Shown: one piece after another, positions 1 through 56,398 of the stretch
Layout of the letters: each line of letters opens with the position of its first letter
Position numbering within the stretch: the first letter of the stretch is position 1
Assembly: GCA_038063875.1 (NCBI GenBank)
Contig: JBBTUH010000002.1
Coordinates: forward strand, 78,451 to 142,450
Origin: Patescibacteria group bacterium
GTDB taxonomy: Bacteria > Patescibacteriota > Microgenomatia > UBA10105 > UBA927
Reading direction: 5' to 3'
DNA: 64,000 bases
Program-made: the position numbers and the translations under genes
The notes under the pieces: generated by a model
Told to the model about the DNA's origin: nothing
The model's database searches: none
What the model saw: only the letters and a program-made list of their open reading frames with translations

Positions 1-995
1 TCGACGACTCCATCACAGGCCGATACCAATGCATCTCGAATCTTTTGAGACCTACAGATCACAGGCACTGCAAAATTAGACACGACATCTATGTGATCAA
101 ATCGTAAGGGATAATAGAGATCAGTTCGAGCATAAATCTTTTTTGCCATCTGCAGAAAATTCCTTTGCCGCTTAGAAACGATTGCCTTAAGATGCTTGAG
201 CTGATTATTCCCTAAAAATCCTTGTATCTCCGTTGTGCGTAAGTTATACCCCAGATCATAAAATGTATATCGCGAGTAGAACGTAGAATTTACATTATGT
301 TTTACACGAAGAAATAATTGTTTGTCCTCTGTTAAGTTCCTATCCCACCCGTGTGCTCTAACGAGGTGCAACATAGTCATGAGCTCATTATCATCTGTTA
401 CCACAGCCCCACCTTCAACGGTCGACATATGGTGCCCGACATAGAAAGAAAATGTGCTTGCCAAACCCCAGTTGCCTAATTTTTTTCCTTTATACACTGT
501 GCCCAATGACTCACAATTATCTTCAATGAGTATGATACCCTTTTTTTTACATATCGATGCGATTTTTTCCATGTCGTCACAAAAACCTAACAAGTTTGTA
601 ATAAATAACATTTTTATCGATGTTTTTTTGAGCACTGACAGAAATAGCGTACTAGAAACGTTCAATGTGTCTAATTCAATGTCTATGGGAACTGGAACTA
701 ACCCGAGTTGTATAAGCGGCATGACATTGGTCGACCATGTAAGAGAAGAAAATCCCACGCGATCACCTTTTTTAATTCTCCCTAAATTCAAAAGCGCCTG
801 TATGAGTGCAAGATTTGCCGAACTACCGCTATTGACGAAAAGGCAGTGCTTACGTGCTTGGTATAGAGCAAAACGCACTTCAAATTTTTTACACTCGGCC
901 CCAATACTCAATTTGTCTGCTGAAACAATAAATGTGGCCAGAGCCTTTTTCGTTTCTTTTTCGTTATAAAATGTCGATTTAATGAGTGGAATCAT
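1..995 (-). CDS. DegT/DnrJ/EryC1/StrS-family PLP/PMP-dependent sugar aminotransferase-fold enzyme, partial (C-terminus lies outside the window); probably a ColD/E1-type sugar 3-dehydratase
   Basis: My own minus-strand translation from the ATG at 995 reads MIPLIKSTFYNEKE...FVNSGSSANLAL...LGNWGLASTFSFYVGHHMSTVEGGAV. This is the hallmark SFY..(K/H)..T.EGG block of the family. His occupies the position of the Schiff-base Lys, as in GDP-4-keto-6-deoxymannose 3-dehydratase ColD and CDP-hexulose 3-dehydratase E1. The plus-strand ORF 454..969 in the ORF track is an antisense artefact of this gene. Confidence 0.8.
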   Translation of the reverse strand, partial: MIPLIKSTFYNEKETKKALATFIVSADKLSIGAECKKFEVRFALYQARKHCLFVNSGSSANLALIQALLNLGRIKKGDRVGFSSLTWSTNVMPLIQLGLVPVPIDIELDTLNVSSTLFLSVLKKTSIKMLFITNLLGFCDDMEKIASICKKKGIILIEDNCESLGTVYKGKKLGNWGLASTFSFYVGHHMSTVEGGAVVTDDNELMTMLHLVRAHGWDRNLTEDKQLFLRVKHNVNSTFYSRYTFYDLGYNLRTTEIQGFLGNNQLKHLKAIVSKRQRNFLQMAKKIYARTDLYYPLRFDHIDVVSNFAVPVICRSQKIRDALVSACDGVV

Positions 996-1005
996 ATATT
1001 GTATC

Positions 1006-1947
1006 TTAACGACTATTCACATGTACTGTTTTATACCATTGGTACGTCAACCACAAGCCTCTATCCAAAGTGGTTCGCGGCATCCATTTCATGGACCTTC
1101 TCATTTTATCCCATGAGACGACTTGATGTAACAATTCATCTTCGCGCTCATCCTCGATTTTATCGATAAAAAGTTTCTCTGAGCCAAGTGCAATAATCTT
1201 AGTTATGAGATCACGAGCTGATATCGGTTTCCCTGCACCAACATTATATATCCTATTTTTTTCTAATTGGGTATCTGTGATTTGCCCGAGCATACTATAT
1301 GCCCGAATAGCATCGTCAACATACATGTACTGTCTTTTCGCACTGCCACCCCAGAGTGTTGGATTCTTGCCATGTACCACACTCATCATAGTCTTTGGGA
1401 TGATACGCGAAAAATTAAGATCACCAGGACCATATATATTTACAAATCGTGGTATCAATACAGGTAGATTAAAACTATCTGCATATGATTGTGCGATCAG
1501 ATCGACACACGTTTTTGACGTTTCGTACGGTCTTGACGGCTTTGCCGGCTCATCTTCTCTATAGGGTACTGGCGCTTTTCCATACACATGTGATGTAGAT
1601 GCGATTATGATACGACGGATATTGAAGCTTCTTGAGACCTCAAGCACATTTAATGCACTTGTAATATTGTTATTAAATGTTTCGTACGGCTGCCTTGATC
1701 CCGCTTCCACAAGCGATTCACTCGCCAAATGAAAACACACATCCGGTCTAAACTGTGTAAACACCGCCATGAGATCTTTTTTGGACGAAACATCAACCTT
1801 TTTTTCCACCGTAAGGTTATGAGGATGCCTTGCTAACCCAAGTACAATTGCTTTTTTCTTCTGCAAATGTGCCAGAAGATGTCGCCCTATAAACCCAGCC
1901 GATCCAGTGACAAGAACCCGACTATTTTCCCATGATTTTATTTGCAT
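1006..1947 (-). CDS. NAD(P)-dependent sugar epimerase/reductase of the extended SDR family (nucleotide-sugar 4-keto reductase or epimerase)
   Basis: It has the Rossmann motif VTGSAGFIGRHL and the YxxxK catalytic dyad in PYETSK. It lies immediately downstream of the dehydratase-like gene. Confidence 0.7.
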   Translation of the reverse strand: MQIKSWENSRVLVTGSAGFIGRHLLAHLQKKKAIVLGLARHPHNLTVEKKVDVSSKKDLMAVFTQFRPDVCFHLASESLVEAGSRQPYETFNNNITSALNVLEVSRSFNIRRIIIASTSHVYGKAPVPYREDEPAKPSRPYETSKTCVDLIAQSYADSFNLPVLIPRFVNIYGPGDLNFSRIIPKTMMSVVHGKNPTLWGGSAKRQYMYVDDAIRAYSMLGQITDTQLEKNRIYNVGAGKPISARDLITKIIALGSEKLFIDKIEDEREDELLHQVVSWDKMRRSMKWMPRTTLDRGLWLTYQWYKTVHVNSR

Positions 1948-2968
1948 ACAGAAGTATTTGGTGCCTTATTATAACCCAACTATAGATAAAAACGAATCCC
2001 ACACCCATTACAGGATGCAAAAACCATGCTCTGTCTCTAATTTTTAAAAATCCTCTACAGCTGTCAAAAAGAGGAACAACGAGCGTTACACAATAAAAAA
2101 TCGCCAGTACGAGACGCCAGATTTCTTTTTTTGTAAATATTTCGTATCGTCGAACACGTTTTCGCTCAAGTGATTTCACACCCACATGATACTGATTCAT
2201 AAACAGCATTCTTCGCTTCAAATAACTCCAAATATTTCCGTATCCTGTTAAATGTAAAATTGCATCATTCACAAACGCATAGGTATCAAACCCGTTGCGA
2301 ATAAGATCCACATTTACATCCATATCAAAATATTCACCCGGTGACGCATGTGCATACCTAAGAAGAATTTTTCGACGAACAAGAAAACCATTCGCACCAA
2401 TGGTAGGCATATTCATATCAGTAAACCGAACGATATAGTGCGGCTTTCTTTTCGCCACCTCTCCCGCCAAGTTATACTGCGAAAACATATACGAGAGCCT
2501 ATCAGCTCGTCCTAAATACCATACGAACGGATCTCCTGTGCCAAAAAGCGCAAAATATCTATCCAGAAGACTCTCTTTGGAATCGTACGCATATCGTAAT
2601 GTCTCTACACCTACAACATTGGTATCTTCCATAAACGGACGCACCATCTTTGATAACCAATGGGCATGGGGAAGTACATTATCATGATCAATCATCGCCA
2701 GAATCTCATGCGTAGCATGTTTAATACCTATACTTTTGTTATATTCTGCATTTTGCTTCGTCGGATCAATGGTATAAATACGCGCATTATATTTTTTGGC
2801 GATCGTAAGCGTAGCATCTTTAGAACCTCCGTCAACGACGATGATTTCAATATTTTTCTGGGGGTAGCGTTGTGCCCTAATGCTTTTCAAGCATCGTTCT
2901 ATGGTACGAATAGAATTATATGTTGGGGTTACGACAGATATGGTAGGAAGGTGATTATTGCGCTTCAT
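1922..2968 (-). CDS. GT2-family glycosyltransferase with a hydrophobic C-terminal region
   Basis: The N-terminal signature is ISVVTPTYNSIRTIERCL...VVDGGSKDAT and the C-terminal part is hydrophobic. The ORF track starts it at 2998. The ATG at 2968 gives a typical GT2 N-terminus (MKRNNHLPTISVVTPTYN) and a smaller overlap with the upstream gene. Confidence 0.75.
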   Translation of the reverse strand: MKRNNHLPTISVVTPTYNSIRTIERCLKSIRAQRYPQKNIEIIVVDGGSKDATLTIAKKYNARIYTIDPTKQNAEYNKSIGIKHATHEILAMIDHDNVLPHAHWLSKMVRPFMEDTNVVGVETLRYAYDSKESLLDRYFALFGTGDPFVWYLGRADRLSYMFSQYNLAGEVAKRKPHYIVRFTDMNMPTIGANGFLVRRKILLRYAHASPGEYFDMDVNVDLIRNGFDTYAFVNDAILHLTGYGNIWSYLKRRMLFMNQYHVGVKSLERKRVRRYEIFTKKEIWRLVLAIFYCVTLVVPLFDSCRGFLKIRDRAWFLHPVMGVGFVFIYSWVIIRHQILLYANKIMGK

Positions 2969-4076
2969 AAGCCTTTTGTAAAAATGCTCGACTCTCATCT
3001 ACTGCTTCATCCCATCGAAACGAATTACTCCATTCAAAAGCATTTTTTTGCATATACCTATATCGCTTTGTATCCTTATACAATCGTATGACTTCCACTG
3101 CTAAATCATGAGGATTCTCTCTTTTGGTAATGATGCCTGTTTCTCCATTCTTTACGGTATCAACAAGTCCTGAAACAGGATACACGACGGATGGTACGCG
3201 TTCTCTTGCCGCCTCGAGCACCACAAGTCCCCACCCTTCTTTGTATGACGTATGAAGCAAAATATGAGATTTGGAAAGTAGTTTTCGTTTCTCCAATTCT
3301 GAAACTTTTCCACACCAAACAATTGCATCAGATAAACCAAGCGATGTACCCAATTGTCGAAGCTTTGTTGTGTACGTTAAGTCCCCACTTCCTACAATCA
3401 ACAATTTTGCTAACGGTACACTCCTTGCCACTTCAGCAAATGAGACAATGATGTCTTCTATTCGTTTCATTCGCACAATACGACCAACAGAAATACAAGT
3501 AAATACTTTATTCTTCTTTTTTTGATAAAGCGACGTGTACTCTTGAATCGGACATGGAATAGCTATACAGTTTGAGCGAGAAATACCATAGTAGACAAGC
3601 TCATCAACAGTTGAGTTCGCATCCGTCCAAATCATGTGATTGCGATACACATATAAAAATAATCGTTCTAGTAATTTACCAATCCAGCGAACTGGTGCTC
3701 CATACATGACATCCCAAATTTTTCCTGCTATCTCATGCAAAAATAGTACGACAGGCACTTTCGCATACATAACGGCAAAAAATGGAATGCCGTGCACTTG
3801 ATCTATGATCAAATCAACTGATGAACGTTTAGATAAATAATAGAGCATTGCCCACATAAACACGGAGACAACATTCCCGCGGCGCACTATATGTACTCCT
3901 TTAACAATTTCTTCATTTTTTGCACCTGAATACATAGCTGCAAACCAAGTAACCATGTCGCCCCGCTTCACCCAGCCTTTTGCATGCTCTAACGTCACAT
4001 ATTCGGCCCCCCCTGATCGCGGATTTTTGGGATCTCTCCAACTTAATAGAAGAATATTCATTCGTGTATTATCCAA
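2955..4076 (-). CDS. GT4-family (GT-B fold) glycosyltransferase
   Basis: It carries the E-X7-E motif EGWGLVVLEAARERVPSVVYPVSGLVDTV that is typical of retaining GT4 enzymes. Confidence 0.75.
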   Translation of the reverse strand: MDNTRMNILLLSWRDPKNPRSGGAEYVTLEHAKGWVKRGDMVTWFAAMYSGAKNEEIVKGVHIVRRGNVVSVFMWAMLYYLSKRSSVDLIIDQVHGIPFFAVMYAKVPVVLFLHEIAGKIWDVMYGAPVRWIGKLLERLFLYVYRNHMIWTDANSTVDELVYYGISRSNCIAIPCPIQEYTSLYQKKKNKVFTCISVGRIVRMKRIEDIIVSFAEVARSVPLAKLLIVGSGDLTYTTKLRQLGTSLGLSDAIVWCGKVSELEKRKLLSKSHILLHTSYKEGWGLVVLEAARERVPSVVYPVSGLVDTVKNGETGIITKRENPHDLAVEVIRLYKDTKRYRYMQKNAFEWSNSFRWDEAVDESRAFLQKAYEAQ

Positions 4077-4872
4077 TATTCACTTTATAATTTAACTCTG
4101 GATCAAATATCCACTTTCTTTTATTAGCATTGTCATAGTAATGAAGTATTTTTAACCGATAATACACGGCAAATGTATCTTTCAACATTTGTAAAATAAT
4201 TCTCCAAACGGATGATGATGTAATACTAGATACACCAGAAAAATCAAGTTCGACAGGAGATTCAAAAATTCTTCTATAGCCCAAATGATGTGCCACAGCA
4301 AGTATTTCTATATCAAATGCAAATTGTTTTACAAGAAGTCGTGGCATGACATCTACCAATACTTTTCGTCGATACAGCTTCATACCGACTTGTGTATCTC
4401 GTACATTCAGCCCAAAAAGTAACCGCACGAGCATCTGATATCCCCACGATAATACTTTTCGTTGAAACGGATACTGAATTATTGACACAGGATGACGCTT
4501 GCTTCCAATAATAATATCTGCGTTATACCAATAAAAATGCTCGAGCATCATGGAGAGCCCTAATTCGCTTACATCTCCTCCGGAATCAATAAATCCTATG
4601 ATATCCCCGCGACTCTTGGCCATACCAAAGCGCACGGCATACCCTTTCCCATGATTCGTGTTATACCCAGTCACAATCAACTTACTAGAATGAACTTTTT
4701 TTGCTTCTTTTTCACTGTTGTCGACTTTCCCGTCGATGACAACTATTACCTCATAAGGAATGGATAACAAGGTGAGCTCACCTAATATAGATTGCAGTTG
4801 TTTTTGAATAGTTTTTTCCTGAGCGTACACAGGAATGATGAGTGAGAGTAACTTTGGTTTATTCTTTCCCAT
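4069..4872 (-). CDS. GT2-family glycosyltransferase, short form, resembling a polyprenyl-phosphate hexose synthase
   Basis: Motifs seen are LSLIIPVYAQEKTI, VVIDGKVDNS, IGFIDSGGD and TQVGMKLY. The start was set at the internal Met at 4872 (MGKNKPKLLSLIIPVY). Confidence 0.65.
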   Translation of the reverse strand: MGKNKPKLLSLIIPVYAQEKTIQKQLQSILGELTLLSIPYEVIVVIDGKVDNSEKEAKKVHSSKLIVTGYNTNHGKGYAVRFGMAKSRGDIIGFIDSGGDVSELGLSMMLEHFYWYNADIIIGSKRHPVSIIQYPFQRKVLSWGYQMLVRLLFGLNVRDTQVGMKLYRRKVLVDVMPRLLVKQFAFDIEILAVAHHLGYRRIFESPVELDFSGVSSITSSSVWRIILQMLKDTFAVYYRLKILHYYDNANKRKWIFDPELNYKVNIG

Positions 4873-6109
4873 AGCGGTAGTATACCAAAAGCACAATACA
4901 GGCTATAGCAGAAACTCCGATGTTTATATATATCACTTGATACAGTGATGAGTGGAAAAACCAAATCCCAACAGCTTGCACAAACGCAGCGCCCAAGGTA
5001 ATCACCCATACGCGCGTTCTGCCGATAGCAAGAAAAATAGTGGTAAGTAAATTAACCAGCGTAAAAAATGTGATAAATATACCAAATAAGCCCATAAAAG
5101 GAATAGCACCATCAAATGCGGTTCCATACATAATCCGAACGATAAAGGCTGGTGCAATAAAATATCCAAGTGTCAGTATGCTGGAGAGTGCCGCCACGGC
5201 ACCGAGAGCGCTTAGCACCATACCATGATAGGATTCTTTGCGCTCTTTTTTCTCAACTATCATCGGAAACATCACAAACCCTAATGCGGCTGACGCATAA
5301 AATATTACCTTACCAAGCACGGCAAGAGATGCGTAGATCCCTGCTTCATATGGAGAGAAAAAATGCTTCACAAGCAAAACGTCTTGACTATAGAGTGCAA
5401 TGGTGCCTAAGGTAGCCAGTAACGTCGGAACACTATAGACCGCCGCATCGGCTTTTGAGATCGACAAAGGCTTTGACTTTACTCGTATCAGACCCCAAAT
5501 CGGCACAAAATTTATGACGTATGAAATCACGTTGGATATGATATTTCCTATAAGTACTCCAATCAGTCCAAATGGCGCTCCTAAAACGCCAAATACTAAT
5601 CGCAGCAGCATTCCGATATTGGTCACTACACTCGATGCCAAAAATAGTTGAAATGATTGCATGATGCTTATGTTTATGACAGAAAAAATGAAACTCACAA
5701 ATATGAAATAGAGCCATATAAAGTAACTTGAAGATATATGCAAAAATTCACCCAATGCGTTCGCTGAAATCACGACGAACACCATTCCAATCAACACAGC
5801 AACACTGATATATCGAAACGCACCCCAAAAAAGTGTAGGAACTTCCTGCAGAAGTTTTCTCGCTCGAAGCTGTGAAAAAAATTTCGCAAGGATCGTTTGG
5901 ACGACGCCCGATCCTATGTTGATTATATAAAATAACGACAAGAGTGCAGAAAATTCTCCATATATCACTGGGCCTAATAATCGTCCTACGAGCACGTGAT
6001 ATGCATATGCACCGACGTTAGCCAGCATTGATCCCACCAAAATAATGAGACTTCCTTTCGCCAGAGGGTGCATCAGCGCATCTTTGATTTTTTGCAAAAA
6101 TCTGTTCAT
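4859..6109 (-). CDS. Wzx-like polysaccharide or oligosaccharide flippase of the MOP superfamily
   Basis: It is a polytopic membrane protein of about 415 aa and hydrophobic throughout. The start at 6109 (MNRFLQKIKDALMHPLAKGS) makes a 4-bp ATGA overlap with the upstream GT2 gene. Confidence 0.65.
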   Translation of the reverse strand: MNRFLQKIKDALMHPLAKGSLIILVGSMLANVGAYAYHVLVGRLLGPVIYGEFSALLSLFYIINIGSGVVQTILAKFFSQLRARKLLQEVPTLFWGAFRYISVAVLIGMVFVVISANALGEFLHISSSYFIWLYFIFVSFIFSVINISIMQSFQLFLASSVVTNIGMLLRLVFGVLGAPFGLIGVLIGNIISNVISYVINFVPIWGLIRVKSKPLSISKADAAVYSVPTLLATLGTIALYSQDVLLVKHFFSPYEAGIYASLAVLGKVIFYASAALGFVMFPMIVEKKERKESYHGMVLSALGAVAALSSILTLGYFIAPAFIVRIMYGTAFDGAIPFMGLFGIFITFFTLVNLLTTIFLAIGRTRVWVITLGAAFVQAVGIWFFHSSLYQVIYINIGVSAIACIVLLVYYRYGKE

Positions 6110-6807
6110 GATGTGCTCACAGAATTCCAAAATCGATACCGTAAAAGCGTAAATACGGCAGCTACTCCATCTTTCCATGTCAACTTCTTGCCTTCGGAAA
6201 ATTTACGACCAAAATACGAAATAGGCACTTCGTATATCTGATAGCCACTTCGCAATACCTTCGCCGTAATTTCTGGTTCAAAATCAAATCGCTTGGCATC
6301 AATGTGTAGCCCTTTGAGAACTGATGCATCAAATACCTTATACCCTGTTTCCATGTCAGTAATATTTGTGTTGTAAAGAATATTGGTGATAAGTGTCACG
6401 AATTTATTACCCATCGCGTATACGAACATAGTAGATAAATGACCGCCCAAAAATCTAGAACCATATACCACATGAACGCGATCATTCTTAAGCGGTGCAA
6501 GAAGTATAGGATAATCAGCTGGGCTATACTCCAAGTCAGCATCTTGTATGAGAATGACATTCCCCGTGGCGTTTGAAATGCCCATAGTCACGGCAGACCC
6601 TTTTCCTTCATTTTTTTCTTTCAGAATGACTTTCACTCGTTTTGTCCATTTTTTAAGCACATTTCGTGTGCCATCTGTAGACCCATCATCGATGACAATA
6701 ATTTCCTTCTCCCATCCTGAAACCACAGCATGAACCACTCGATCAATAAGCTCATCAATAGTCGACACTTCGTTATATACCGGAATGATAATGGAAAGTT
6801 TTTTCAT
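6106..6807 (-). CDS. GT2-family glycosyltransferase, DPM1/GtrB-like putative polyprenyl-phosphate sugar synthase
   Basis: Motifs seen are LSIIIPVYNEVSTI, IDDGSTDGT, IQDADLEYSP and GSRF. These are characteristic of the dolichyl-P-mannose/glucose synthase clade. The protein is 233 aa with no obvious transmembrane segment. Confidence 0.7.
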   Translation of the reverse strand: MKKLSIIIPVYNEVSTIDELIDRVVHAVVSGWEKEIIVIDDGSTDGTRNVLKKWTKRVKVILKEKNEGKGSAVTMGISNATGNVILIQDADLEYSPADYPILLAPLKNDRVHVVYGSRFLGGHLSTMFVYAMGNKFVTLITNILYNTNITDMETGYKVFDASVLKGLHIDAKRFDFEPEITAKVLRSGYQIYEVPISYFGRKFSEGKKLTWKDGVAAVFTLLRYRFWNSVSTS

Positions 6808-8165
6808 GCGTTGAAAAAGGCCTTACCGTGGAGGATTAACCATGCCCAGAGCGGAATAAATTCCAAAGTTTTTCCATCTATCTTTTGTATAGCCGAATAA
6901 TTTTTCGTTAACACATGTCCTTTTTCCTTATTAAACTCCTGCAATCCTTCTACCATGCCCTGTGTTTCTCTCTCATGCGGCTGATCAGTGTATGAAACAT
7001 TATAAAAAGCCAACGCAGGATCCATAGTCACAAAATCTATCTCTTTCTTACCTTTCCAATAGTAAATCGCCTGCGATTGTTTTTTTAGCTCCATGTATAC
7101 TATATTTTCCGCACATTGCCCGATATCAGGTCGTAAAAGCGGCACGTTAAAATTTCGCAGTCCATTATCGACTACATACATCTTCCGAGCCCTTTGCACA
7201 TCCTGCGTCTCCTTCGTTTTATACGAATAATGCTTACTCTCAAAGAGTAAATATGCCCGCTGAAAATACTCGATGTAGGATTTGGTAGTCTCTAAAGAGA
7301 GTTTCTGCGGTCGAGATAAACTACTGTATGTATGCGTTTTCGTAAAATCAGACATAATCTGAAGTCCTAATACTTCTACTTCCTGCTGATTTCGAACACC
7401 ATTGGGCACCACAACGTCTCTGGAAACCGTATCTCTAAAATAATTTGATGCCAATGTCCGTTTGACATCTTCATCTTCGGTAAGCACTATTTCAGGATAC
7501 CCGCCTTCTTTCATATAATTCCCCAAGTGATGTAAAATTTTCGTTTGTTGGGAGAAATTAGCCTTGAGAATCGATGATATATTCGCTTGCCCTTCTATGG
7601 TAATTCCTTTTATGCGCAAATATTCATAAAAGTTAAAGGGGTAGACGTCTACTTGAACGTTTCTGCCGGTCAAAACTGTCGCCGACTCTGACTCAACCAA
7701 CGATCGACGTGATCCAGAAAGTATAAACTTAACAGGATCTTTCCGCTCATACTTACTGCTTATCCAACGATTGAAGTCTTTAATTCCCTGAATTTCATCC
7801 AAAAATATATAAACTTTCCCTTGCGGATTGTAAGTCTCCATATAATAGATAAAAATATCTTCCAAGAGTTTCCAGCCTTGTGTCAAATACTGCTGCACCA
7901 ATATATCCTCCAAAAACAAATACAAAACGTTTTTGGCAGGTATACCTTTCTTAACGATAAGATGCTCCATGAGTTGATGCATCAGCGTCGATTTCCCTGC
8001 ACGACGAACACCAGCAAGGATTAACACATGACGAATATCCAGAAGTTTTTTGAAGCGCTCAAGATACTTCTCTCGAGGCACGGTATGTATCCATTTACCT
8101 TTCAAGGGATCAGTAAAGTGAGGGTTCCATGTCGAAATTAACGTTTGGCACACTTCTCTATCCAT
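6804..8165 (-). CDS. AAA-type ATPase, DUF4143/COG1373-like
   Basis: It has a Walker A motif in LILAGVRRAGKST and a Walker B-like IFLDEIQ. The long C-terminal domain is typical of the archaeal/bacterial ATPase-plus-DUF4143 family. Confidence 0.6.
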   Translation of the reverse strand: MDREVCQTLISTWNPHFTDPLKGKWIHTVPREKYLERFKKLLDIRHVLILAGVRRAGKSTLMHQLMEHLIVKKGIPAKNVLYLFLEDILVQQYLTQGWKLLEDIFIYYMETYNPQGKVYIFLDEIQGIKDFNRWISSKYERKDPVKFILSGSRRSLVESESATVLTGRNVQVDVYPFNFYEYLRIKGITIEGQANISSILKANFSQQTKILHHLGNYMKEGGYPEIVLTEDEDVKRTLASNYFRDTVSRDVVVPNGVRNQQEVEVLGLQIMSDFTKTHTYSSLSRPQKLSLETTKSYIEYFQRAYLLFESKHYSYKTKETQDVQRARKMYVVDNGLRNFNVPLLRPDIGQCAENIVYMELKKQSQAIYYWKGKKEIDFVTMDPALAFYNVSYTDQPHERETQGMVEGLQEFNKEKGHVLTKNYSAIQKIDGKTLEFIPLWAWLILHGKAFFNA

Positions 8166-9433: not shown

Positions 9434-10255
9434 CTAAGTAGTCAACTTTACACCGGTCGAGAGTTCATTGACTACTTTCTTCAATGTTGATTTCACTCGT
9501 TTATATGCACTATCTCCTTTCCACCACGGCGGGAGCAAAGAAAAAGGCAATTGAGGATCATCTTTAAGAATTGCTAAATACGAAACGATTGAAAATTGAT
9601 CACCATCACCTTGATCATGCATCCATGTCACATAACGATCATTCAGTTCCTCTAGTTTGTAAACACGAACAATCATCGCCCGCACGTCCTCTTCCCCAAT
9701 TGATCCATCTTTTCCCATATCAGAAACAATAATATTTCCTTTCAATCCATGTTGTTCAACAAAACCACGAAGTGTATCAATTGGGTTATATGGAGTGATC
9801 CATACCGATTCCTGCAACAAGCCGCATCCAATGACTCTCAAATATTCACGAAGTAAATAACGATCACTACTTTTCTTTTCTGGTATATCGTATGTCACAA
9901 GGTACATCCGTCCGTCCCATACTCGATTTTCGTCGTAATGAGGAAGTATTGCTTCTAACCGCCTTTTTCCTTCAATAGTTATCTCTGGTAATGCACCACG
10001 CCTGATGATCTTTATCCATCCTCGTTTTCTTGCCGTTTGTATGGCATTTTTAAAAACTTCATAGTTTACTTGATCAAGAAACTTATCTGCGCTACGTCTT
10101 GCTCGCCACAATTGCCCATACTGTGATTGAGGCACGCCCATTGAAGCCATATACATCGTAATCCATAATCCTAAATCTACTGAATACGCAAATACCCCTT
10201 CTGCAACCTGAAGTGCTGCCCGACTCAATTTCCTCATTCCTTGTTTTCTACCCAT
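9434..10255 (-). CDS. PaaX-family-like transcriptional regulator (putative)
   Basis: The segment GKRRLEAI...WDGRMYLVTYDIPEKKSSDRYLLREYLRVIGCGLLQESVWITP resembles the PaaX core, whose consensus is GRRRLEA...WDG.W.LV...E..R..LR..L...GFG.L...VW..P. The gene is flanked by two copies of a palindromic element (see findings). Confidence 0.5.
   Translation of the reverse strand: MGRKQGMRKLSRAALQVAEGVFAYSVDLGLWITMYMASMGVPQSQYGQLWRARRSADKFLDQVNYEVFKNAIQTARKRGWIKIIRRGALPEITIEGKRRLEAILPHYDENRVWDGRMYLVTYDIPEKKSSDRYLLREYLRVIGCGLLQESVWITPYNPIDTLRGFVEQHGLKGNIIVSDMGKDGSIGEEDVRAMIVRVYKLEELNDRYVTWMHDQGDGDQFSIVSYLAILKDDPQLPFSLLPPWWKGDSAYKRVKSTLKKVVNELSTGVKLTT
9436..9477. promoter_or_regulatory. Palindromic element, copy 1. 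It has 10-bp inverted arms AAGTAGTCAA/TTGACTACTT and a 22-nt spacer containing CCGGTCG. It overlaps the 3' end of the PaaX-like gene.
   Basis: Read directly from the sequence: aagtagtcaactttacaccggtcgagagttcattgactactt. It may be an operator, a terminator-like hairpin or a repeat element. Confidence 0.5.
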
Positions 10256-29306: not shown

Positions 29307-30959
29307 ATGAGACAAAGACATACATTTTTCGCACTGCTTGCTATATTGGCAATCGGAACGTTTTTTCGTTTTTATCGTTTAACCACCGTCCCACCGTCAA
29401 TCTCACACGATGAATCAGCTATAGCATATAACGCGTATTCAATTTTAAAGACTGGTAAGGATGAGTATGGCACACCGTTCCCTTTACTCTTTCGATCATT
29501 TGATGACTACAAATTACCGGGCATGGTCTACTCGAGCATTCCAGCTGTCTCAGTGTTTGGCCGCACAGCCATGGGTGCCCGATTTACCTCAGCGTTTTTT
29601 GGTGTGCTTACACTTCTTGCATTCTATTTTCTGACATATGAATTGATAATAAATCATCGTAATAAAGCACAACTTTATGCGTTAGCAACTACATTTTTCC
29701 TTGCTATATCACCATGGCACATAAACTTTTCTAGGCAATTATTTGAATCAAACGGTGCCCTCTTTTTCATCACTCTATCGACATACACACTGCTAAAATC
29801 ACTAAAAAATATTCGATTTTTGCTCCTCTCATCATTGCTCTTTGGCATATCTGTTTATTTTTATTATTCTGTCAGACTGGTAATCCCATGTATTATCCTT
29901 GCGTACGTTCTTATTAATAAAAAGCAACTACTAGTAAACAAAACCATAGTAATCATATCGGTATTTCTATTTCTTGTAAGCATCTTCCCTGTTGGTACAC
30001 TCATGTTTTCCAAAGACGGTCTTGAACGTGTATCTATAGTCAGTCTTTTAAACGATCCCAATTATCACAAATGGAAGGATGTATTCATAAAGCGGTACGC
30101 AAAAAATCAAAACGTAATAAACAAAATCCTCTTTAATCAAAAAACAGCACTTGGTATGACCGCTATCGATAATTACTGGAAAAATATCACACCACTTCAG
30201 ATTTTTGAAAGCGGCACTGGTCCCTATGGTCTGCAGCACCCATTTGAAATACCCTTGATGTTTATCGGCCTCTTATATCTCTTGCAGTACGCAAATCCTG
30301 CAAAATGGATTCTTATAGCATGGCTATTCTCAGCTTTTTTGCCGGGAGCCCTTAGTACAAATCAACCAAATGCCCTTCGTACATTATTGGCTGCGCCAAT
30401 TTTTTCGTTATTCTCTGGTCTTGGCGCTATAGAGTTTTTGGAAGCTATTGAAAAACGTAAACGATTACTCTTTGGCATAGTGCCGTTTTCACTCAGTATC
30501 ATTTTTTTCATGTATACTTTTTATCAAGCGTACTTTATCGTTAATCCGATCCGAAACGCACTTGGATTTGGAGACGGATACGAACAAATGGTCCAGTATG
30601 TGACAACCAATCAGAAACAATACGACCGTGTTGTAATTTCTGGCTACTATTGGAGACCATATATTTTTATGCTCTATTGGAGTGATATAGATCCACACGA
30701 ATATCAAAAACTAAACGGCTCAAGACACGGATGGGGGAAATATGTATTTACAGGTGCGCAGTGGGACAAAAACGATATTTTTCTTTTATCTCCATCTTAT
30801 GATCCCAAAAAACTTGTCTTATCAACACCAGAAAAAACGCTATTTATATTAGCCAAACCAGAGTTTGATAACAACGCGTCGCGATACCGACAAATAGATA
30901 CAATATCAGGCAGACATGAACCATCGGTTTTCATTGCAGCCCTCAGCAGCCAAAATTAG
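29307..30959 (+). CDS. PMT/ArnT-type (GT39-like) GT-C membrane glycosyltransferase (paralog)
   Basis: The loop motif is PPSISHDESAIAYNAYSILKTGKDEYGTPFPL. The C-terminal segment GFGDGYEQMVQYV is shared with the other paralogs. Confidence 0.65.
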   Translation: MRQRHTFFALLAILAIGTFFRFYRLTTVPPSISHDESAIAYNAYSILKTGKDEYGTPFPLLFRSFDDYKLPGMVYSSIPAVSVFGRTAMGARFTSAFFGVLTLLAFYFLTYELIINHRNKAQLYALATTFFLAISPWHINFSRQLFESNGALFFITLSTYTLLKSLKNIRFLLLSSLLFGISVYFYYSVRLVIPCIILAYVLINKKQLLVNKTIVIISVFLFLVSIFPVGTLMFSKDGLERVSIVSLLNDPNYHKWKDVFIKRYAKNQNVINKILFNQKTALGMTAIDNYWKNITPLQIFESGTGPYGLQHPFEIPLMFIGLLYLLQYANPAKWILIAWLFSAFLPGALSTNQPNALRTLLAAPIFSLFSGLGAIEFLEAIEKRKRLLFGIVPFSLSIIFFMYTFYQAYFIVNPIRNALGFGDGYEQMVQYVTTNQKQYDRVVISGYYWRPYIFMLYWSDIDPHEYQKLNGSRHGWGKYVFTGAQWDKNDIFLLSPSYDPKKLVLSTPEKTLFILAKPEFDNNASRYRQIDTISGRHEPSVFIAALSSQN

Positions 30960-31825
30960 CTTTTTATTTTTTCTGCAAGTACGACCATGTTATCCATCAT
31001 TGGTATATAAACAGGCAAGCGAGCAAAAATCGTATTACCAACCAAACGATAGAGATATGAAGCAACTTTACTCTCGCCTGTCGTGCGACCCAGATGCAAC
31101 ACATACCCAAGACTCAACCATTTCCCGATCCTATACCATTGTACTGGCTTTAAACCAGCTCTCCTTAGAGCCTCGGTCAAAGTAATACGATCAAAAAAGA
31201 ATAAGTGCTGAGGAGGGATAAAAAACGTCCACCGACGACCGAATATTCTGGCTGCAAAACTTTTCATATCTCCTGTGGCGATAATCATTACCCCATCGTC
31301 TGAAAGATAATTCGTAAGCTTTACGATATCGCCAATAGGATCGGATAAATGTTCAAATACATCAAACAAACTGATCACATCAAATGATTTTGCTTTGTAT
31401 GAAACCTCAGTAATCAACCCTTGTTTAATTCGTTTGTCTCCAACAAGCTTTTTTGCCTCTAAAACGGCGTGTTCTGATGCATCGAATCCATACGCATCAT
31501 AGCCATACTGCAACGCAAGCTCTACCGCATATCCATATGCGCATCCTACATCAAGAAATGTTCCACTTGGTTTACGATTTCTAATACATCGCAAAAATTT
31601 TTCTAAATTCTTTGTAATGTACGTCTTATCGCGACCATAATCTGCATACGCACTGCGAGTCGCGTCACCAGTGAAATACCCTCGAGAATAGTGCTTTTCT
31701 ACGAACGTTTCATATTTTTGTTTAAGATCCGTTCGTATAAGACCACAGGAGACGCACTCATAAAGGTCGAACCCATTCTTATGAAGATACATTCGCGTTG
31801 GAGAGGTACAAAGGTAGCATTTCAT
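30956..31825 (-). CDS. Class I SAM-dependent methyltransferase with an N-terminal Cys4 zinc-ribbon
   Basis: It has an N-terminal CxxC...CxxC in CYLCTSPTRMYLHKNGFDLYECVSCG. It also has the methyltransferase motif I, LDVGCAYGYAVELA. Confidence 0.7.
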   Translation of the reverse strand: MKCYLCTSPTRMYLHKNGFDLYECVSCGLIRTDLKQKYETFVEKHYSRGYFTGDATRSAYADYGRDKTYITKNLEKFLRCIRNRKPSGTFLDVGCAYGYAVELALQYGYDAYGFDASEHAVLEAKKLVGDKRIKQGLITEVSYKAKSFDVISLFDVFEHLSDPIGDIVKLTNYLSDDGVMIIATGDMKSFAARIFGRRWTFFIPPQHLFFFDRITLTEALRRAGLKPVQWYRIGKWLSLGYVLHLGRTTGESKVASYLYRLVGNTIFARLPVYIPMMDNMVVLAEKIKS

Positions 31826-40777: not shown

Positions 40778-42220
40778 CTAGCCTTTCAAAGATTTCACAA
40801 ACGAACGAATATGCTCTCGATCAATAAGCCATACACACCCTGCATAAAGTATAACACCCATAAGTCCTACGCCGGTAAGGTTGACATACGTATTTGGCAC
40901 AAACCGTAACACGACGCCATACCATGCTGCCTGAAAAAGAGCGGCCACTACGGCAGAATATGTATTTGGCAAAAATTGAAAGGCGACAATCTTTTGCATC
41001 TCTCGTACGACAATACCGATGGTAAATGTAATAAGAAAAATCGATAACGCCACGCCTTGATACCCGAAGAAATAAATGAAGAGAACTGTAAGCACCCATG
41101 TAAGCGTTGTCCACATCACCATCAATAACAAAGTGGTCTTGATCTTTCCTATCGCATTTAATGCGTTGGTAAGAGGTGTTGTAAGACCAGCGATAGCTGC
41201 CGCACCGACAAAAAGATAAAACGACAATAAAGCAGGCTCCCATTTGTTATATTTCGGGATCAAAAATACAAGTGGCCGCACAAAAAATAATAATGCGACA
41301 GAGATAGGAAAAATGGTCAAAGACAAACCATATATCGTTTTTTCAAGAGCCTTTCCTAAAAGTTTTTTATCATGCTGTATACGTGAAAAAGCTGGAAATG
41401 TCACGCGCACGACGCTGTCCATAATAAGTCGCAGAGGTACTTCTGCCCATTTTTTTGCCCACCCCAAATATCCAACCTGCGAAAACGGTAACACTTTACC
41501 AAGAAAAACAATCAACAAATCATCTTTTACCAATGCGAGAAAAGAATTGAGTTGAAATGGTACACCGAAACGTAAAAGTCTTCGTGCAACCACTGTTGAT
41601 ATACCAAGACTTGGAACCCACGGCTCTACGATATATACCGTGATAACACCTAAAATCCCACGGGCTAACACAGCGTACGAAAAGCTTGTAATTCCCATGC
41701 CCTTCCAAGCCAAATAGACCGCTACAACATAAAATCCAATCGTCTCTACTATCGTAGGAATCACTAAACGATTAAACGATAATGATCTCTCCATAAGTAT
41801 GGAAGGAATAGTCTTTAATGACGAGAGAAAAAATGAAATAACAAGCGCACGAAATAACCATACCCCTGACTCGTCCAGTGCATAAAAATTCGCCACTTGT
41901 TGAGAAAAAACAAGGGCTACAATCACAACAGCTCCCACTAAGAGCTGTTGAATGGTAAAGGTCGTTTGTATATCTTCTTTTGTCAGTTCTTCTTTTTTCT
42001 GCACCAATGCAGCCGCAAGTCCAATGTCTGAGAAATACCCCAAAAACGAAATCACTGCAGAAACAACATAATACACGCCAAAAATAGAAGGTGTTAAAAG
42101 AAGTGTTAAGAAAAATGTTGCAATAAATCCAATAATCTGCAGAGTAAAGGTACGAGCCGTGAGTGCGACCACGCCTTTGACCGATCGGGACTTGATGGTA
42201 GAAATAGTAGGCTCTGTCAT
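40778..42220 (-). CDS. Wzx-like oligosaccharide flippase of the MOP/polysaccharide-biosynthesis family
   Basis: It is 480 aa and polytopic, with about 12 or more transmembrane segments. It lies immediately downstream of a DPM1-like GT2 gene with an ATGA overlap. Confidence 0.65.
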   Translation of the reverse strand: MTEPTISTIKSRSVKGVVALTARTFTLQIIGFIATFFLTLLLTPSIFGVYYVVSAVISFLGYFSDIGLAAALVQKKEELTKEDIQTTFTIQQLLVGAVVIVALVFSQQVANFYALDESGVWLFRALVISFFLSSLKTIPSILMERSLSFNRLVIPTIVETIGFYVVAVYLAWKGMGITSFSYAVLARGILGVITVYIVEPWVPSLGISTVVARRLLRFGVPFQLNSFLALVKDDLLIVFLGKVLPFSQVGYLGWAKKWAEVPLRLIMDSVVRVTFPAFSRIQHDKKLLGKALEKTIYGLSLTIFPISVALLFFVRPLVFLIPKYNKWEPALLSFYLFVGAAAIAGLTTPLTNALNAIGKIKTTLLLMVMWTTLTWVLTVLFIYFFGYQGVALSIFLITFTIGIVVREMQKIVAFQFLPNTYSAVVAALFQAAWYGVVLRFVPNTYVNLTGVGLMGVILYAGCVWLIDREHIRSFVKSLKG

Positions 42221-52261: not shown

Positions 52262-53218
52262 CTAAACGCGCGCTCTCCAGTATTCAAGAAGGTCTTTTAG
52301 CGTCTTCTCAAAGGGGATTTCTGGTTGCCATCCAGTTTTGTCGACAAACATAGAATTATCGCCTATCAGGATTGGCACATCAGACGGTCTCATACGAGCT
52401 GGATCTTGTTTAATTTGTACTTTCACAGTCGAGAAAGACAAAAGCATATCTAAGACCGTCTTAATCTTAAACGCTTTACCCGTACAAATATTGTATACCT
52501 GCCCTGCGTCACATTTCTCGACAGCAAGTGTGTATGCTCTGACCATATCTCGTACATCTGTGTAGTCTCTTTCCGCATCGAGGTTTCCCACAGAAATGAC
52601 AGGTTCCTGCTTACCCTTTTCAATAAGCGCAATTTGCTTAGAAAACGTGCTTTCTGCAAACGTCTCACCTCTTCGAGGACCTGTATGATTAAACCCTCTA
52701 GTTCTCACTATTTTGAGCTTATATGATTCGAAGTACTGGTATCCTAAATAATCCATCGCTACCTTTGATACAGCGTATGGTGAGAGTGGTCGTAATGGAT
52801 TCGTTTCCTTTATCGGTACTTCGCTCGGAAACACCATACCATACTCTTCAGAAGAACACGCAATTTGTATAACTGGATTAATACCCGCTTGCTTGACCGC
52901 TTCAAAAAGATTTGCAGAACCGACGATATTTACCTCAAGGGTAATAGCGGGAGATCCCCATGACGTCGGCACGAAGGACTGCGCAGCCAAGTGATAAATC
53001 ACATCTGGCTTCATTTCGCTGATCGTCGCATACAAGCTATGTGAATCCATCAAATCTGCATCGACAAGTTTGATTTTGTCTTTTATGTGCTCGATATGAT
53101 CGGTTTTACTTCGGTGTCTATATAAGCCGTATAACTCAATGTCTTTTTGCGTCAATAAATATTCTGCCAAATGACTTCCCACGAACCCTGTCACGCCTGT
53201 AATTAATACTTTTTTCAT
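52262..53218 (-). CDS. GDP-mannose 4,6-dehydratase/GDP-4-keto-6-deoxymannose reductase-like enzyme (Gmd/Rmd family, short form)
   Basis: The segments LITGVTGFVGSHLAEYL, HLAAQSFVPTSW, SPYAVSKVAMDYL, FNHTGPRRGETF, QDPARMRPSD and TGWQPEI closely parallel the Gmd blocks (FNHESPRRGETF) and the Rmd blocks (HLAGQTYVPEAF, QDPARMR, TGWKPEI). Confidence 0.65.
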   Translation of the reverse strand: MKKVLITGVTGFVGSHLAEYLLTQKDIELYGLYRHRSKTDHIEHIKDKIKLVDADLMDSHSLYATISEMKPDVIYHLAAQSFVPTSWGSPAITLEVNIVGSANLFEAVKQAGINPVIQIACSSEEYGMVFPSEVPIKETNPLRPLSPYAVSKVAMDYLGYQYFESYKLKIVRTRGFNHTGPRRGETFAESTFSKQIALIEKGKQEPVISVGNLDAERDYTDVRDMVRAYTLAVEKCDAGQVYNICTGKAFKIKTVLDMLLSFSTVKVQIKQDPARMRPSDVPILIGDNSMFVDKTGWQPEIPFEKTLKDLLEYWRARV

Positions 53219-53229
53219 AATTCCTCCTT

Positions 53230-56394: not shown

Positions 56395-56398
56395 GGTA

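What the first reader, a model, noticed from the sequence alone, without database searches (positions are those of the whole stretch)
1..1947. ColD/E1-type sugar 3-dehydratase with Lys replaced by His, plus an SDR, implying a 3,6-dideoxyhexose pathway
The partial DegT-family gene has FSFYVGHHMSTVEGG. The residue aligned with the universally conserved Schiff-base lysine of sugar aminotransferases is histidine. This matches exactly the state seen in the PMP-dependent 3-dehydratases ColD (GDP-colitose) and E1 (CDP-3,6-dideoxyhexoses). An extended-SDR reductase or epimerase follows it. Together they suggest synthesis of a 3,6-dideoxyhexose such as colitose, abequose, paratose or tyvelose. These are rare sugars, best known from Gram-negative O-antigens.
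Basis: partly seen in the sequence, partly recalled or inferred. Interest (0 to 1): 0.6.

Follow-up and report, generated by a model that had tools for sequence, protein, structure and literature searches.

The report
ColD-type sugar 3-dehydratase in Patescibacteria
The truncated gene at the left edge of the window does encode a vitamin-B6 enzyme of the known ColD kind that removes the 3-hydroxyl from an activated sugar, so this uncultured ultra-small groundwater bacterium probably puts a rare 3,6-dideoxy sugar on its surface; it is a new member of a known enzyme family.

Summary
Window 1-995 (minus strand) encodes the first 331 of 394 residues of a DegT-family protein. It carries FSFYVGHHMSTVEGG, and His188 sits exactly where sugar aminotransferases have the Schiff-base lysine.

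The best solved relative is ColD (E 3e-51), followed by other 3-dehydratases. Lysine-type aminotransferases score far lower. All 148 informative family representatives have His at this position.

The enzyme is of the ColD type, not the E1 type. The E1 iron-sulfur cysteine motif is absent. No E3-like reductase was found in the window or in 10 kb beyond its left edge.

The adjacent SDR (1006-1947) lacks every 4,6-dehydratase acid/base signature. It travels mainly with the upstream GT2 gene. The likelier partner is a GDP-fucose-synthase/ColC-like SDR just outside the window. It lies immediately downstream of the dehydratase gene in 33 of 80 related loci.

The same operon carries a glucose-1-phosphate cytidylyltransferase and a CDP-glucose 4,6-dehydratase. 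The substrate may therefore be CDP-linked (about 0.5) rather than the canonical GDP-linked one (about 0.3). This is unresolved.

The family is common in Patescibacteria, and JGI already auto-annotates it as a 3-dehydrase. It is a new member of a known kind, of moderate interest.

The parts
1..995 (-). N-terminal 331 of 394 codons of a ColD-type PLP/PMP-dependent NDP-4-keto-6-deoxyhexose 3-dehydratase, cut by the window edge. It is intact on the identical contigs L002 and L005.
   Evidence: PF01041, 197 bits; ColD 2gms, E 2.9e-51.
408..452 (-). Active-site motif FSFYVGHHMSTVEGG (residues 182-196). The His188 codon CAC is at 432-434 and replaces the Schiff-base lysine.
   Evidence: Alignment to ColD, the ColD H188K variant and E1. 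His in 148/148 representatives.
1006..1947 (-). SDR1, a 313-aa extended SDR directly upstream of the dehydratase gene (10-bp gap). It has GSAGFIG, STSHVYG and YETSK, with no 4,6-dehydratase acid/base pair. It is possibly an NADPH-dependent 4-ketoreductase or epimerase; its function is not settled.
   Evidence: Dehydratase signatures from PMC8987622 Table 1. Homologues lie in 16-17 of 80 related loci, mostly next to the GT2 homologue.
1922..2998 (-). GT2-family glycosyltransferase with a C-terminal membrane region. It overlaps the SDR1 start by 26 bp. GT2 and SDR1 behave as a conserved pair in related loci.
52262..53218 (-). GMD/Rmd-family SDR (SSEEYG), the only GDP-sugar-type enzyme seen in the window. 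It is a possible source or user of GDP-4-keto-6-deoxymannose if the dehydratase is GDP-dependent. It lies 51 kb away, so the link is speculative.
   Evidence: gmd model 193 bits, cut-off 415; Rmd 2pk3, E 1.2e-84; GDP-heptose 4,6-dehydratase 7us5, 3e-73.

Best explanation
The gene encodes a ColD-type nucleotide-sugar 3-dehydratase. The enzyme has the DegT aminotransferase fold and carries His188 in place of the Schiff-base lysine. Its PMP cofactor forms a Schiff base with the C4 keto group of an NDP-4-keto-6-deoxyhexose. The histidine abstracts the C4' proton and the 3-hydroxyl is expelled. The enzyme has no iron-sulfur cluster and no reductase partner. The resulting 3,4-ene intermediate is therefore presumably hydrolysed, as in ColD, to the NDP-4-keto-3,6-dideoxyhexose plus ammonia, and PMP is regenerated from PLP with L-glutamate. 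The product is most likely taken by the GDP-fucose-synthase/ColC-like SDR encoded immediately downstream, just outside the window. That SDR keeps the Cys/His epimerisation pair and the Ser-Tyr-Lys reductase triad, so it would perform C5 epimerisation and C4 reduction to an L-series 3,6-dideoxyhexose. The many glycosyltransferases of this roughly 75-kb glycan island would then use the sugar. For the nucleotide, I favour CDP (about 0.5). In that case a glucose-1-phosphate cytidylyltransferase and a CDP-glucose 4,6-dehydratase in the same operon supply CDP-4-keto-6-deoxyglucose, and the product is ascarylose-like. The alternative is canonical GDP-colitose (about 0.3). Shown here: sequence family, active-site state, absence of the Fe-S motif, and gene neighbourhood. 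Inferred: catalytic activity, glutamate-dependent regeneration, the partner enzyme, the nucleotide and the sugar product.
For: His188 aligns with ColD His188 and E1 His220. PDB hits rank ColD at 178 bits, a putative NDP-4-keto-6-deoxyglucose 3-dehydratase (9wvy) at 138, E1 at 131, and the best Lys-type aminotransferase at 96. The best NCBIfam hit is RfbH at 221 bits, against PseC at 146. His is present in 148/148 family representatives. Near-invariant family columns include query D159, E162, S183, H188, R219, N251, R253 and R334. These match ColD D159, E162, S183, H188, R219, N248, R250 and R331. The E1 segment rdwgrdCyCapgCdntC aligns to rahgwdrnlte..dkq in the query, and no cysteine lies between residues 162 and 313. 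Pfam annotation found no FAD/NAD/[2Fe-2S] reductase among the window ORFs scanned or in the 10 kb beyond the left edge. The downstream SDR2 is GDP-fucose-synthase-like (NCBIfam 217 bits; PDB 7ll6, E 1.4e-48; SSACIYP and KSHVIPAL retained). A homologue follows the dehydratase gene in 33 of 80 genome loci at a median distance of 10 bp. The operon also holds a glucose-1-phosphate cytidylyltransferase (TIGR02623, 282 bits, full length) and an SDR with the S-D-K...YxxxK signature of CDP-glucose 4,6-dehydratase. In loci L011 and L026, no nucleotide-sugar enzymes other than these four were found in 21 kb. Within 10 kb, cytidylyltransferase occurs in 12 of 80 loci and GMD in 10, and the two never co-occur. 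The cytidylyltransferase loci form one block of the NJ tree, and the query sits in that block.
Against: No activity has been measured. All characterised Fe-S-free 3-dehydratases (ColD) and all characterised GFS/ColC-family enzymes act on GDP-sugars, so homology argues for GDP, not CDP. Relatives 62-69% identical sit near genuine GMD genes, and L076 has the order GMD, ColD-like, GFS-like. Only two alignment positions (31 and 254) separate cytidylyltransferase-context from GMD-context proteins, which is little for a change of both nucleotide and C2 configuration. The non-overlap of GMD and cytidylyltransferase contexts is not statistically strong (about 1.5 overlaps expected by chance) and is confounded by phylogeny. 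A GMD/Rmd-like gene exists in the window. Every pathway enzyme scores below its NCBIfam equivalog cut-off. The roles I assign to the ColD active-site residues and to the GFS Cys/His pair rest on my memory of the structural papers, which were not available here.
Confidence: 0.8

Rival explanations
1. Canonical GDP-L-colitose pathway. The enzyme is a true ColD orthologue acting on GDP-4-keto-6-deoxy-D-mannose, and the downstream GFS-like SDR is ColC. GMD is encoded elsewhere, for example by the GMD/Rmd-like gene at 52262-53218. The cytidylyltransferase, CDP-glucose 4,6-dehydratase, SDR1 and SDR3 would then make a separate CDP-6-deoxyhexose.
For: The closest characterised homologues of both enzymes use GDP-sugars. 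GMD lies within 10 kb in 10 of 80 related loci and is adjacent in L076. The window holds a GMD/Rmd-like gene. Only two residues distinguish the two context groups. This split lets every enzyme use the nucleotide typical of its family.
Against: No GMD or mannose-1-phosphate guanylyltransferase is in the tightly overlapping operon. None was found within 10 kb in any of the 27 loci whose dehydratase is at least 69% identical to this one. In L011 and L026 the cytidylyltransferase and CDP-glucose 4,6-dehydratase would have no downstream enzyme other than the ColD-like and GFS-like pair. The window's GMD/Rmd-like gene is 51 kb away, in a block with UDP-glucose dehydrogenase and rml-like genes.
Confidence: 0.3
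2. E1-type (RfbH/DdhC/AscC) CDP-6-deoxy-4-hexulose 3-dehydrase, as JGI names the homologues. This would be an iron-sulfur enzyme that needs an E3 reductase to reduce the glucoseen intermediate.
For: The best NCBIfam model is RfbH. JGI names homologues 'CDP-6-deoxy-D-xylo-4-hexulose-3-dehydrase'. CDP-glucose pathway genes are in the operon.
Against: The RfbH score of 221 is far below the 423 cut-off. The E1 cysteines 251, 253 and 261 have no counterpart, and the region is ColD-like (RAHGWDRN). No E3-like flavin/[2Fe-2S] reductase was found in the window or in 10 kb beyond its left edge. The protein is more similar to ColD than to E1 (178 against 131 bits).
Confidence: 0.03
3. Ordinary lysine-dependent sugar aminotransferase, with the histidine an artefact of misalignment or a sequencing error.
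For: NCBI annotates homologues generically as DegT/DnrJ/EryC1/StrS aminotransferases.
Against: Independent HMMER alignments to ColD, E1 and 9wvy agree on the position. The sequence is identical on several independent assemblies. There is no Lys at the position in 148 representatives. Genuine Lys-type paralogues (FSFQAIKHLT) exist as separate genes in 20 related loci.
Confidence: 0.01
4. A 3-dehydratase serving a different end product: a dTDP-linked, SpnQ-like route, or a 4-amino-3,4,6-trideoxyhexose made with a partner aminotransferase.
For: RmlA- and RmlB-like genes in the window could supply dTDP-4-keto-6-deoxyglucose. A Lys-type DegT aminotransferase sits next to the dehydratase gene in 20 of 80 related loci.
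Against: This locus has no second DegT gene and no Nudix-type 2,3-dehydratase. SpnQ-type enzymes carry the Fe-S motif, which is absent here. No RmlA-like gene occurs within 7 kb of the dehydratase in any of the 80 loci.
Confidence: 0.06

Closest known systems
ColD (WbdK), GDP-4-keto-6-deoxy-D-mannose 3-dehydratase of E. coli O55 and other colitose producers (PDB 2gms, 2gmu, 2r0t, 3b8x, 3gr9)
   Same: It is the best solved relative (E 2.9e-51, about 33% identity). Both have His188 in place of the Schiff-base Lys. D159, E162, S183, R219, N248/N251, R250/R253 and R331/R334 are conserved. Both have the RAHGW(T/D)RN segment without an Fe-S motif. Both have a GFS/ColC-like SDR as the neighbouring gene.
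   Different: The residue before the catalytic His is Gly instead of Ser187. The operon carries a cytidylyltransferase and a CDP-glucose 4,6-dehydratase instead of ManC and GMD. The host is a Patescibacteria-type organism, presumably without LPS. The protein belongs to a separate subfamily that is 60-99% identical within Patescibacteria.
E1 (AscC/DdhC/RfbH), CDP-6-deoxy-L-threo-D-glycero-4-hexulose 3-dehydrase of Yersinia and Salmonella (PDB 3bb8, 3bcx)
   Same: Same fold and the same Lys-to-His change (His220). The probable gene context is also the same: glucose-1-phosphate cytidylyltransferase plus CDP-glucose 4,6-dehydratase.
   Different: E1 holds a [2Fe-2S] cluster on four cysteines and needs the E3 reductase. 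Here three of those cysteines are absent and no E3 gene is present. Identity is about 30% over the C-terminal half. The RfbH model score is half its cut-off.
PDB 9wvy, putative NDP-4-keto-6-deoxyglucose 3-dehydratase
   Same: It has the FSFYAGHH motif and no cysteine cluster after the active site. Identity is 33%.
   Different: It has Lys instead of Arg at the position matching query R253, and Pro at the position matching R219. I found no description of its function in the held literature.
SpnQ, dTDP-4-keto-2,6-dideoxyglucose 3-dehydratase of spinosyn biosynthesis
   Same: It is a PMP-dependent 3-dehydratase with His in place of Lys (review PMC8987622).
   Different: SpnQ has the Fe-S motif and uses general ferredoxin or flavodoxin reductases. 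It acts after a 2,3-dehydratase. Neither feature is present here.

Membership tests
DegT/DnrJ/EryC1/StrS sugar aminotransferase superfamily (Pfam PF01041) | Match to the family profile above the gathering score | tested here: met
   197 bits against a cut-off of 19.8, residues 13-326.
Nucleotide-sugar 3-dehydratases (ColD, E1, SpnQ) | Catalytic histidine in place of the conserved Schiff-base lysine | tested here: met
   His188 aligns with ColD His188, with the Lys of the ColD H188K structure, and with E1 His220. His is present in 148/148 representatives. The feature is taken from PMC8987622.
Nucleotide-sugar 3-dehydratases (ColD, E1, SpnQ) | Cofactor- and substrate-binding residues of the ColD active site are conserved (Asp159, Glu162, Ser183, Arg219, Asn248, Arg331; roles recalled from the Cook and Holden structures, not re-read here) | tested here: met
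   Query D159, E162, S183, R219, N251 and R334 fall in columns that are at least 93% conserved across 150 representatives, and they match ColD.
Nucleotide-sugar 3-dehydratases (ColD, E1, SpnQ) | C3 deoxygenation of an NDP-4-keto-6-deoxyhexose | not testable with these tools
   This needs an enzyme assay.
ColD subtype (reductase-independent, glutamate-regenerated) | No [2Fe-2S]-binding cysteine motif | tested here: met
   The E1 segment DCYCAPGCDNTC aligns to a cysteine-free segment. The query has no Cys between residues 162 and 313.
ColD subtype (reductase-independent, glutamate-regenerated) | No dedicated reductase; partner is a GFS-like GDP-L-colitose synthase (ColC) | tested here: met
   No reductase domain was found in the window ORFs scanned or in 10 kb beyond the left edge. 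A GFS-like SDR overlaps the dehydratase stop codon by 4 bp. A homologue is adjacent in 33 of 80 loci.
ColD subtype (reductase-independent, glutamate-regenerated) | GDP-4-keto-6-deoxy-D-mannose as substrate, with GMD in the pathway | tested here: inconclusive
   The operon has no GMD and instead has a cytidylyltransferase and a CDP-glucose 4,6-dehydratase. A GMD/Rmd-like gene lies 51 kb away. GMD is close by in 10 more distant loci.
E1 / RfbH / DdhC (NCBIfam NF011936) | Score at or above the curated equivalog cut-off | tested here: not met
   220.8 bits against a cut-off of 423.
E1 / RfbH / DdhC (NCBIfam NF011936) | Four-cysteine [2Fe-2S] motif and an E3 (AscD/DdhD) reductase partner | tested here: not met
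   motif; no reductase.
NS-SDR 4,6-dehydratases (tested for SDR1, window 1006-1947) | Acid/base pair after the catalytic Ser/Thr: DE (dTDP/UDP), DK (CDP) or SE (GDP) | tested here: not met
   SDR1 has S-T-S-H-V-Y-G. Signatures are from Table 1 of PMC8987622. NCBIfam scores of 143 and 135 bits fall below the cut-offs of 365 and 278.
Extended SDR (tested for SDR1) | Glycine-rich NAD(P) motif and the Ser/Thr...YxxxK triad | tested here: met
   GSAGFIG, STS and YETSK are present. Pfam Epimerase scores 179 bits.
GDP-L-fucose synthase / ColC family (tested for SDR2, L001:12134-13114, outside the window) | Ser-Tyr-Lys triad plus the Cys and His epimerisation pair (E. coli GFS Cys109 and His179, recalled from memory) | tested here: met
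   SSACIYP, GGYGWAK and KSHVIPAL align with GFS GSSCIYP and SSHVLPAL. However, the NCBIfam score of 217 bits is below the 500 cut-off.
CDP-glucose 4,6-dehydratase (tested for SDR4, L001:19233-20192, outside the window) | [ST]DK...Yx3K signature | tested here: met
   ASSDKAYG and YEVSK are present. The TIGR02622 score of 184.5 is below the 278 cut-off.
CDP-tyvelose 2-epimerase (tested for SDR3, L001:13111-14157, outside the window) | Thr124/Tyr164/Lys168 triad, TNK segment, VAM segment, and the Tyr203-Asp204-Gln205 lid | tested here: not met
   TNK is kept, but Tyr164 is Phe (HSVFGVSK), VAM is PSH, and the YDQ lid is K-L-H. Features are from PMC13098431. Phe is conserved in 117 of 120 homologues.

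The most novel reading that the evidence does not exclude
In one Patescibacteria clade (Gottesmanbacteria/Microgenomates-like), a ColD-type dehydratase has been coupled to the CDP-glucose branch. This dehydratase has no iron-sulfur cluster and needs no reductase. Together with a GFS/ColC-like 5-epimerase/4-reductase, it would form a four-enzyme, E3-free route: cytidylyltransferase, CDP-glucose 4,6-dehydratase, ColD-like, ColC-like. The product would be a CDP-activated L-series 3,6-dideoxyhexose, either ascarylose or its unprecedented C4 epimer. The sugar would be used for surface glycans in bacteria that are not expected to make LPS.
Probability: 0.4. Interest if true: 0.55.

Novelty: new member of a known kind. 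Interest (0 to 1): 0.35.

Why it matters
3,6-Dideoxyhexoses are known mainly as immunodominant O-antigen sugars of Gram-negative pathogens. This enzyme family is abundant and strongly conserved in Patescibacteria. More than 100 clusters at 90% identity are 70-99% identical to this protein, and they span Gottesman-, Levy-, Roizman-, Saccharibacteria and Parcubacteria-type MAGs. That suggests these ultra-small, host-dependent bacteria decorate their surfaces with such sugars, which bears on how they attach to hosts and are recognised.

For annotation, the result shows two faults. NCBI's generic name 'aminotransferase' misses the chemistry. JGI's name 'E1' implies an Fe-S/E3 mechanism that the sequence does not support.

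If the CDP reading holds, the clade would provide a simpler, reductase-free enzymatic route to CDP-3,6-dideoxyhexoses. Such a route would be useful for glycoengineering.

Tried and rejected
(1) Misalignment of His with Lys was rejected by three independent alignments and by family-wide conservation.

(2) E1-type chemistry was rejected: no Cys motif and no E3 gene.

(3) SDR1 as the pathway's 4,6-dehydratase was rejected on the active-site signature.

(4) I first read SDR3 as a CDP-tyvelose 2-epimerase, and so as support for tyvelose and for CDP. I withdrew this when the alignment showed Tyr164 replaced by Phe and the VAM and YDQ elements missing.

(5) I tried to decide between GDP and CDP from specificity-determining positions between GMD-context and cytidylyltransferase-context homologues. 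Only two positions (31 and 254) discriminate, which is too few to conclude anything.

(6) I tried to read the ColD and E1 structural papers (PMC2242600, PMC2533848, PMC2782820). They are not held, so residue roles rest on memory plus the data-driven conservation.

(7) Literature searches for dideoxyhexoses in Patescibacteria, or for ColD-type enzymes on CDP-sugars, found nothing relevant in the held library. This is weak negative evidence only.

(8) Rfam and tRNA scans of the window found nothing.

(9) I did not run structure prediction, because the sequence match to solved ColD structures is already decisive for the fold.
Full report
**What is in the sequence**

On the minus strand, an ORF starts at ATG 995-993 and runs off the left end of the window, giving 331 codons. 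It contains FSFYVGHHMSTVEGG at residues 182-196 (window 408-452), and the His188 codon CAC is at 432-434. Ten bases upstream on the same strand ends a 313-aa ORF (1006-1947). Its start overlaps the stop of a GT2 glycosyltransferase gene (1922-2998).

The window is identical over 11,947 bp to contig L002, a Logan assembly of run ERR3858121. It is about 3% different from L001, a 146-kb Hainich groundwater contig. All of these contigs encode the same intact 394-aa protein, so the gene is cut only by the window edge.

**Family placement of the DegT gene**

- Pfam assigns the protein to DegT_DnrJ_EryC1 at 197 bits.
- Against solved structures, the top hits are ColD at 178 bits (E 2.9e-51), the putative NDP-4-keto-6-deoxyglucose 3-dehydratase 9wvy at 138 bits, and E1 at 131 bits. 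The best lysine-type aminotransferase reaches 96 bits.
- The alignments place His188 opposite ColD His188, opposite the engineered Lys of the ColD H188K structure, and opposite E1 His220.
- A search of 1.84 billion cluster representatives returned 674 proteins at E 1e-30 or better. Of the best 150, all 148 that cover the site have His there and none has Lys.
- Columns conserved in at least 93% of these sequences include query D159, E162, S183, H188, R219, N251, R253 and R334. After correcting the two-residue offset of the PDB chain, these match ColD D159, E162, S183, H188, R219, N248, R250 and R331. Those are the residues I recall from the Cook and Holden structures as cofactor and substrate ligands. 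I could not re-read those papers.

The observation and the core interpretation are therefore confirmed.

**ColD type or E1 type**

According to the 2022 JBC review (PMC8987622), E1 and SpnQ carry a four-cysteine [2Fe-2S] motif and need a reductase. ColD lacks the cluster, hydrolyses the ene-intermediate, and regenerates PMP from glutamate.

In the E1 alignment, the segment rdwgrdCyCapgCdntC faces the cysteine-free, ColD-like rahgwdrnlte..dkq of the query. The query has no cysteine between residues 162 and 313. Only the Cys shared by ColD and E1 (E1 Cys193) is conserved.

Pfam annotation found no flavin/[2Fe-2S] reductase among the window ORFs scanned or on the 10 kb beyond the left edge. None appeared among the 25 commonest neighbour families in 80 related loci. 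The RfbH equivalog model scores 221 bits against a cut-off of 423.

The protein therefore works like ColD, not like E1, although JGI names its homologues E1.

**The SDR inside the finding**

SDR1 is an extended SDR with GSAGFIG, STSHVYG and YETSK. It lacks the DE, DK or SE acid/base pairs that define nucleotide-sugar 4,6-dehydratases. It matches no NCBIfam model near its cut-off, and its PDB hits are a mixed set of epimerases, dehydratases and the reductase Rmd.

An Arg rather than an Asp follows the second beta-strand (LGLARH). By my inference, this suggests an NADPH-dependent reductase.

Homologues occur in 16-17 of 80 related loci, usually directly after the GT2 homologue and not always next to the dehydratase gene.

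**Genes just outside the window**

Downstream of the dehydratase, L001/L002 carry the following genes, with 4- to 22-bp overlaps between most neighbours.

| Gene | Evidence | Comment |
|---|---|---|
| SDR2 | GDP-fucose-synthase-like; NCBIfam 217 bits; PDB 7ll6, E 1.4e-48 | Keeps SSACIYP, YGWAK and KSHVIPAL |
| SDR3 | Best PDB hits are the CDP-tyvelose 2-epimerases | See the caution below |
| Three glycosyltransferases and a methyltransferase | Pfam | |
| Glucose-1-phosphate cytidylyltransferase | TIGR02623, 282 bits against a cut-off of 300, full length | |
| SDR4 | ASSDKAYG...YEVSK | The CDP-glucose 4,6-dehydratase signature |
| Second cytidylyltransferase paralogue | TIGR02623, 221 bits (partial) | |

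The window's own strain shows the same cytidylyltransferase start on L005.

**Comparative context**

The dehydratase has very many close relatives. The top 120 clusters are 70-99% identical, and sources that name an organism give Patescibacteria or Gottesmanbacteria.

In 80 genome loci:

- A GFS-like SDR follows the dehydratase in 33 loci, at a median distance of 10 bp.
- A cytidylyltransferase lies within 10 kb in 12 loci and a genuine GMD in 10, and the two never co-occur.
- No RmlA-like gene lies within 7 kb in any locus.
- The cytidylyltransferase loci form one block of a neighbour-joining tree, and the query sits in that block.
- In L011 and L026, no nucleotide-sugar enzymes other than the cytidylyltransferase, the CDP-glucose 4,6-dehydratase, the ColD-like protein and the GFS-like SDR were found in 21 kb. 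Without the last two, CDP-4-keto-6-deoxyglucose would be a dead end.

These points favour a CDP-linked pathway. Several points argue the other way:

- All characterised ColD and GFS/ColC enzymes use GDP-sugars.
- L076 shows the classical order GMD, ColD-like, GFS-like.
- Only two positions separate the two context groups.
- The window itself has a GMD/Rmd-like gene at 52262-53218.

I put CDP at about 0.5, GDP at about 0.3 and other nucleotides at about 0.2.

**Likely product**

With a ColC-like 5-epimerase/4-reductase as partner, the product should be an L-series 3,6-dideoxyhexose. That is colitose if the substrate is GDP-mannose-derived, and ascarylose or its C4 epimer if it is CDP-glucose-derived. 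This step rests on stereochemical reasoning, not on a test.

**A caution on tyvelose**

SDR3 looks like a CDP-tyvelose 2-epimerase by best hit, and JGI names it so. It fails three of four defining features taken from the 2026 TaTyvE structure paper:

- The catalytic Tyr164 is Phe (HSVFGVSK).
- The VAM segment is PSH.
- The Tyr-Asp-Gln lid is K-L-H.

Phe is conserved in 117 of 120 homologues. SDR3 therefore cannot be used as evidence for tyvelose or for CDP, and its chemistry is unexplained.

**Verdict**

The finding is real and correctly interpreted at the level of enzyme class. It is a new, uncharacterised member of a known family, in a lineage where such sugars have not been described in the literature I could search. 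JGI's automated annotation already recognises the family. Interest is moderate. It would rise if the CDP-linked, reductase-free route were shown.

Noticed in passing
L001:13111-14157 (two genes downstream of the dehydratase, just left of window position 1); the same gene is on L002: This extended SDR has the CDP-tyvelose 2-epimerases as its best solved relatives. Its SDR catalytic Tyr is replaced by Phe (HSVFGVSK). It also lacks the TyvE VAM segment and the Tyr-Asp-Gln lid. Phe is conserved in 117 of 120 close homologues in Patescibacteria. A 34-38% identical paralogue in L007, L008, L010 and L045 keeps YGCSK. The chemistry is unknown.
   Followed up: partly
window 2955-51126: Nearly the whole window is one glycan-assembly island, mostly on the minus strand. 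It holds at least 14 large membrane proteins of 500-780 aa of the GT-C type (PMT/PMT_2, YfhO, PTPS_related). It also holds many GT2 and GT4 genes, two Wzx-like flippases (4859-6178 and 40778-42220) and a methyltransferase (30956-31825). This is an unusually dense set of paralogous GT-C genes.
   Followed up: partly
window 52262-57151: A second nucleotide-sugar block lies here. It contains an RmlA-like gene (56399-57151; 230 bits, below cut-off), RmlB (55402-56394; 476 bits, above cut-off; STDEVFG) and an RmlD-like gene (54533-55444). It also contains UDP-glucose 6-dehydrogenase (53230-54543) and a GMD/Rmd-like SDR (52262-53218; best PDB hit Rmd 2pk3, 1e-84). No RmlC was seen.
   Followed up: partly
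window 6804-8165 and 9434-10255: An AAA_14/DUF4143 ATPase gene and a PaaX_M-domain protein gene sit in the middle of the glycosyltransferase operon. Both are conserved at the same place on L001-L004.
   Followed up: no
L007-L086 (record titles): About half of the related genome records are titled 'uncultured Gammaproteobacteria bacterium' or 'Pseudomonadales' (bulk TPA MAG submissions). Their loci are syntenic with, and 62-80% identical to, records named Patescibacteria, Gottesmanbacteria, Levyibacteriota or Saccharibacteria. The Gammaproteobacteria labels look like placeholders or errors. I could not verify the taxonomy here.
   Followed up: no
20 of the 80 related loci, for example L079:8246-9358: A lysine-type DegT aminotransferase (FSFQAIKHLT) lies directly next to the His-type dehydratase gene. 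This suggests that some relatives make a 4-amino-3,4,6-trideoxyhexose instead of a 3,6-dideoxyhexose. Seven loci also carry a C-methyltransferase-like gene with a zinc-ribbon N-terminus.
   Followed up: no
L011:19004-20934 and L026:19136-20176: Unexpected genes follow the cytidylyltransferase and CDP-glucose 4,6-dehydratase pair. L011 has an acylating acetaldehyde dehydrogenase plus a DmpG-like aldolase. L026 has a protein combining 4Fe-4S dicluster, LdpA_C and DUF561 domains, followed by a HAD hydrolase. These may relate to sugar branching or to redox steps.
   Followed up: no
window 57413-58294, 60057-60839, 60846-61967: A CAP (cysteine-rich secretory protein) domain protein, a lamin-tail-domain protein and an M23 peptidase sit at the right end of the window, next to FtsX- and FtsE-like genes (61987-63602).
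   Followed up: no
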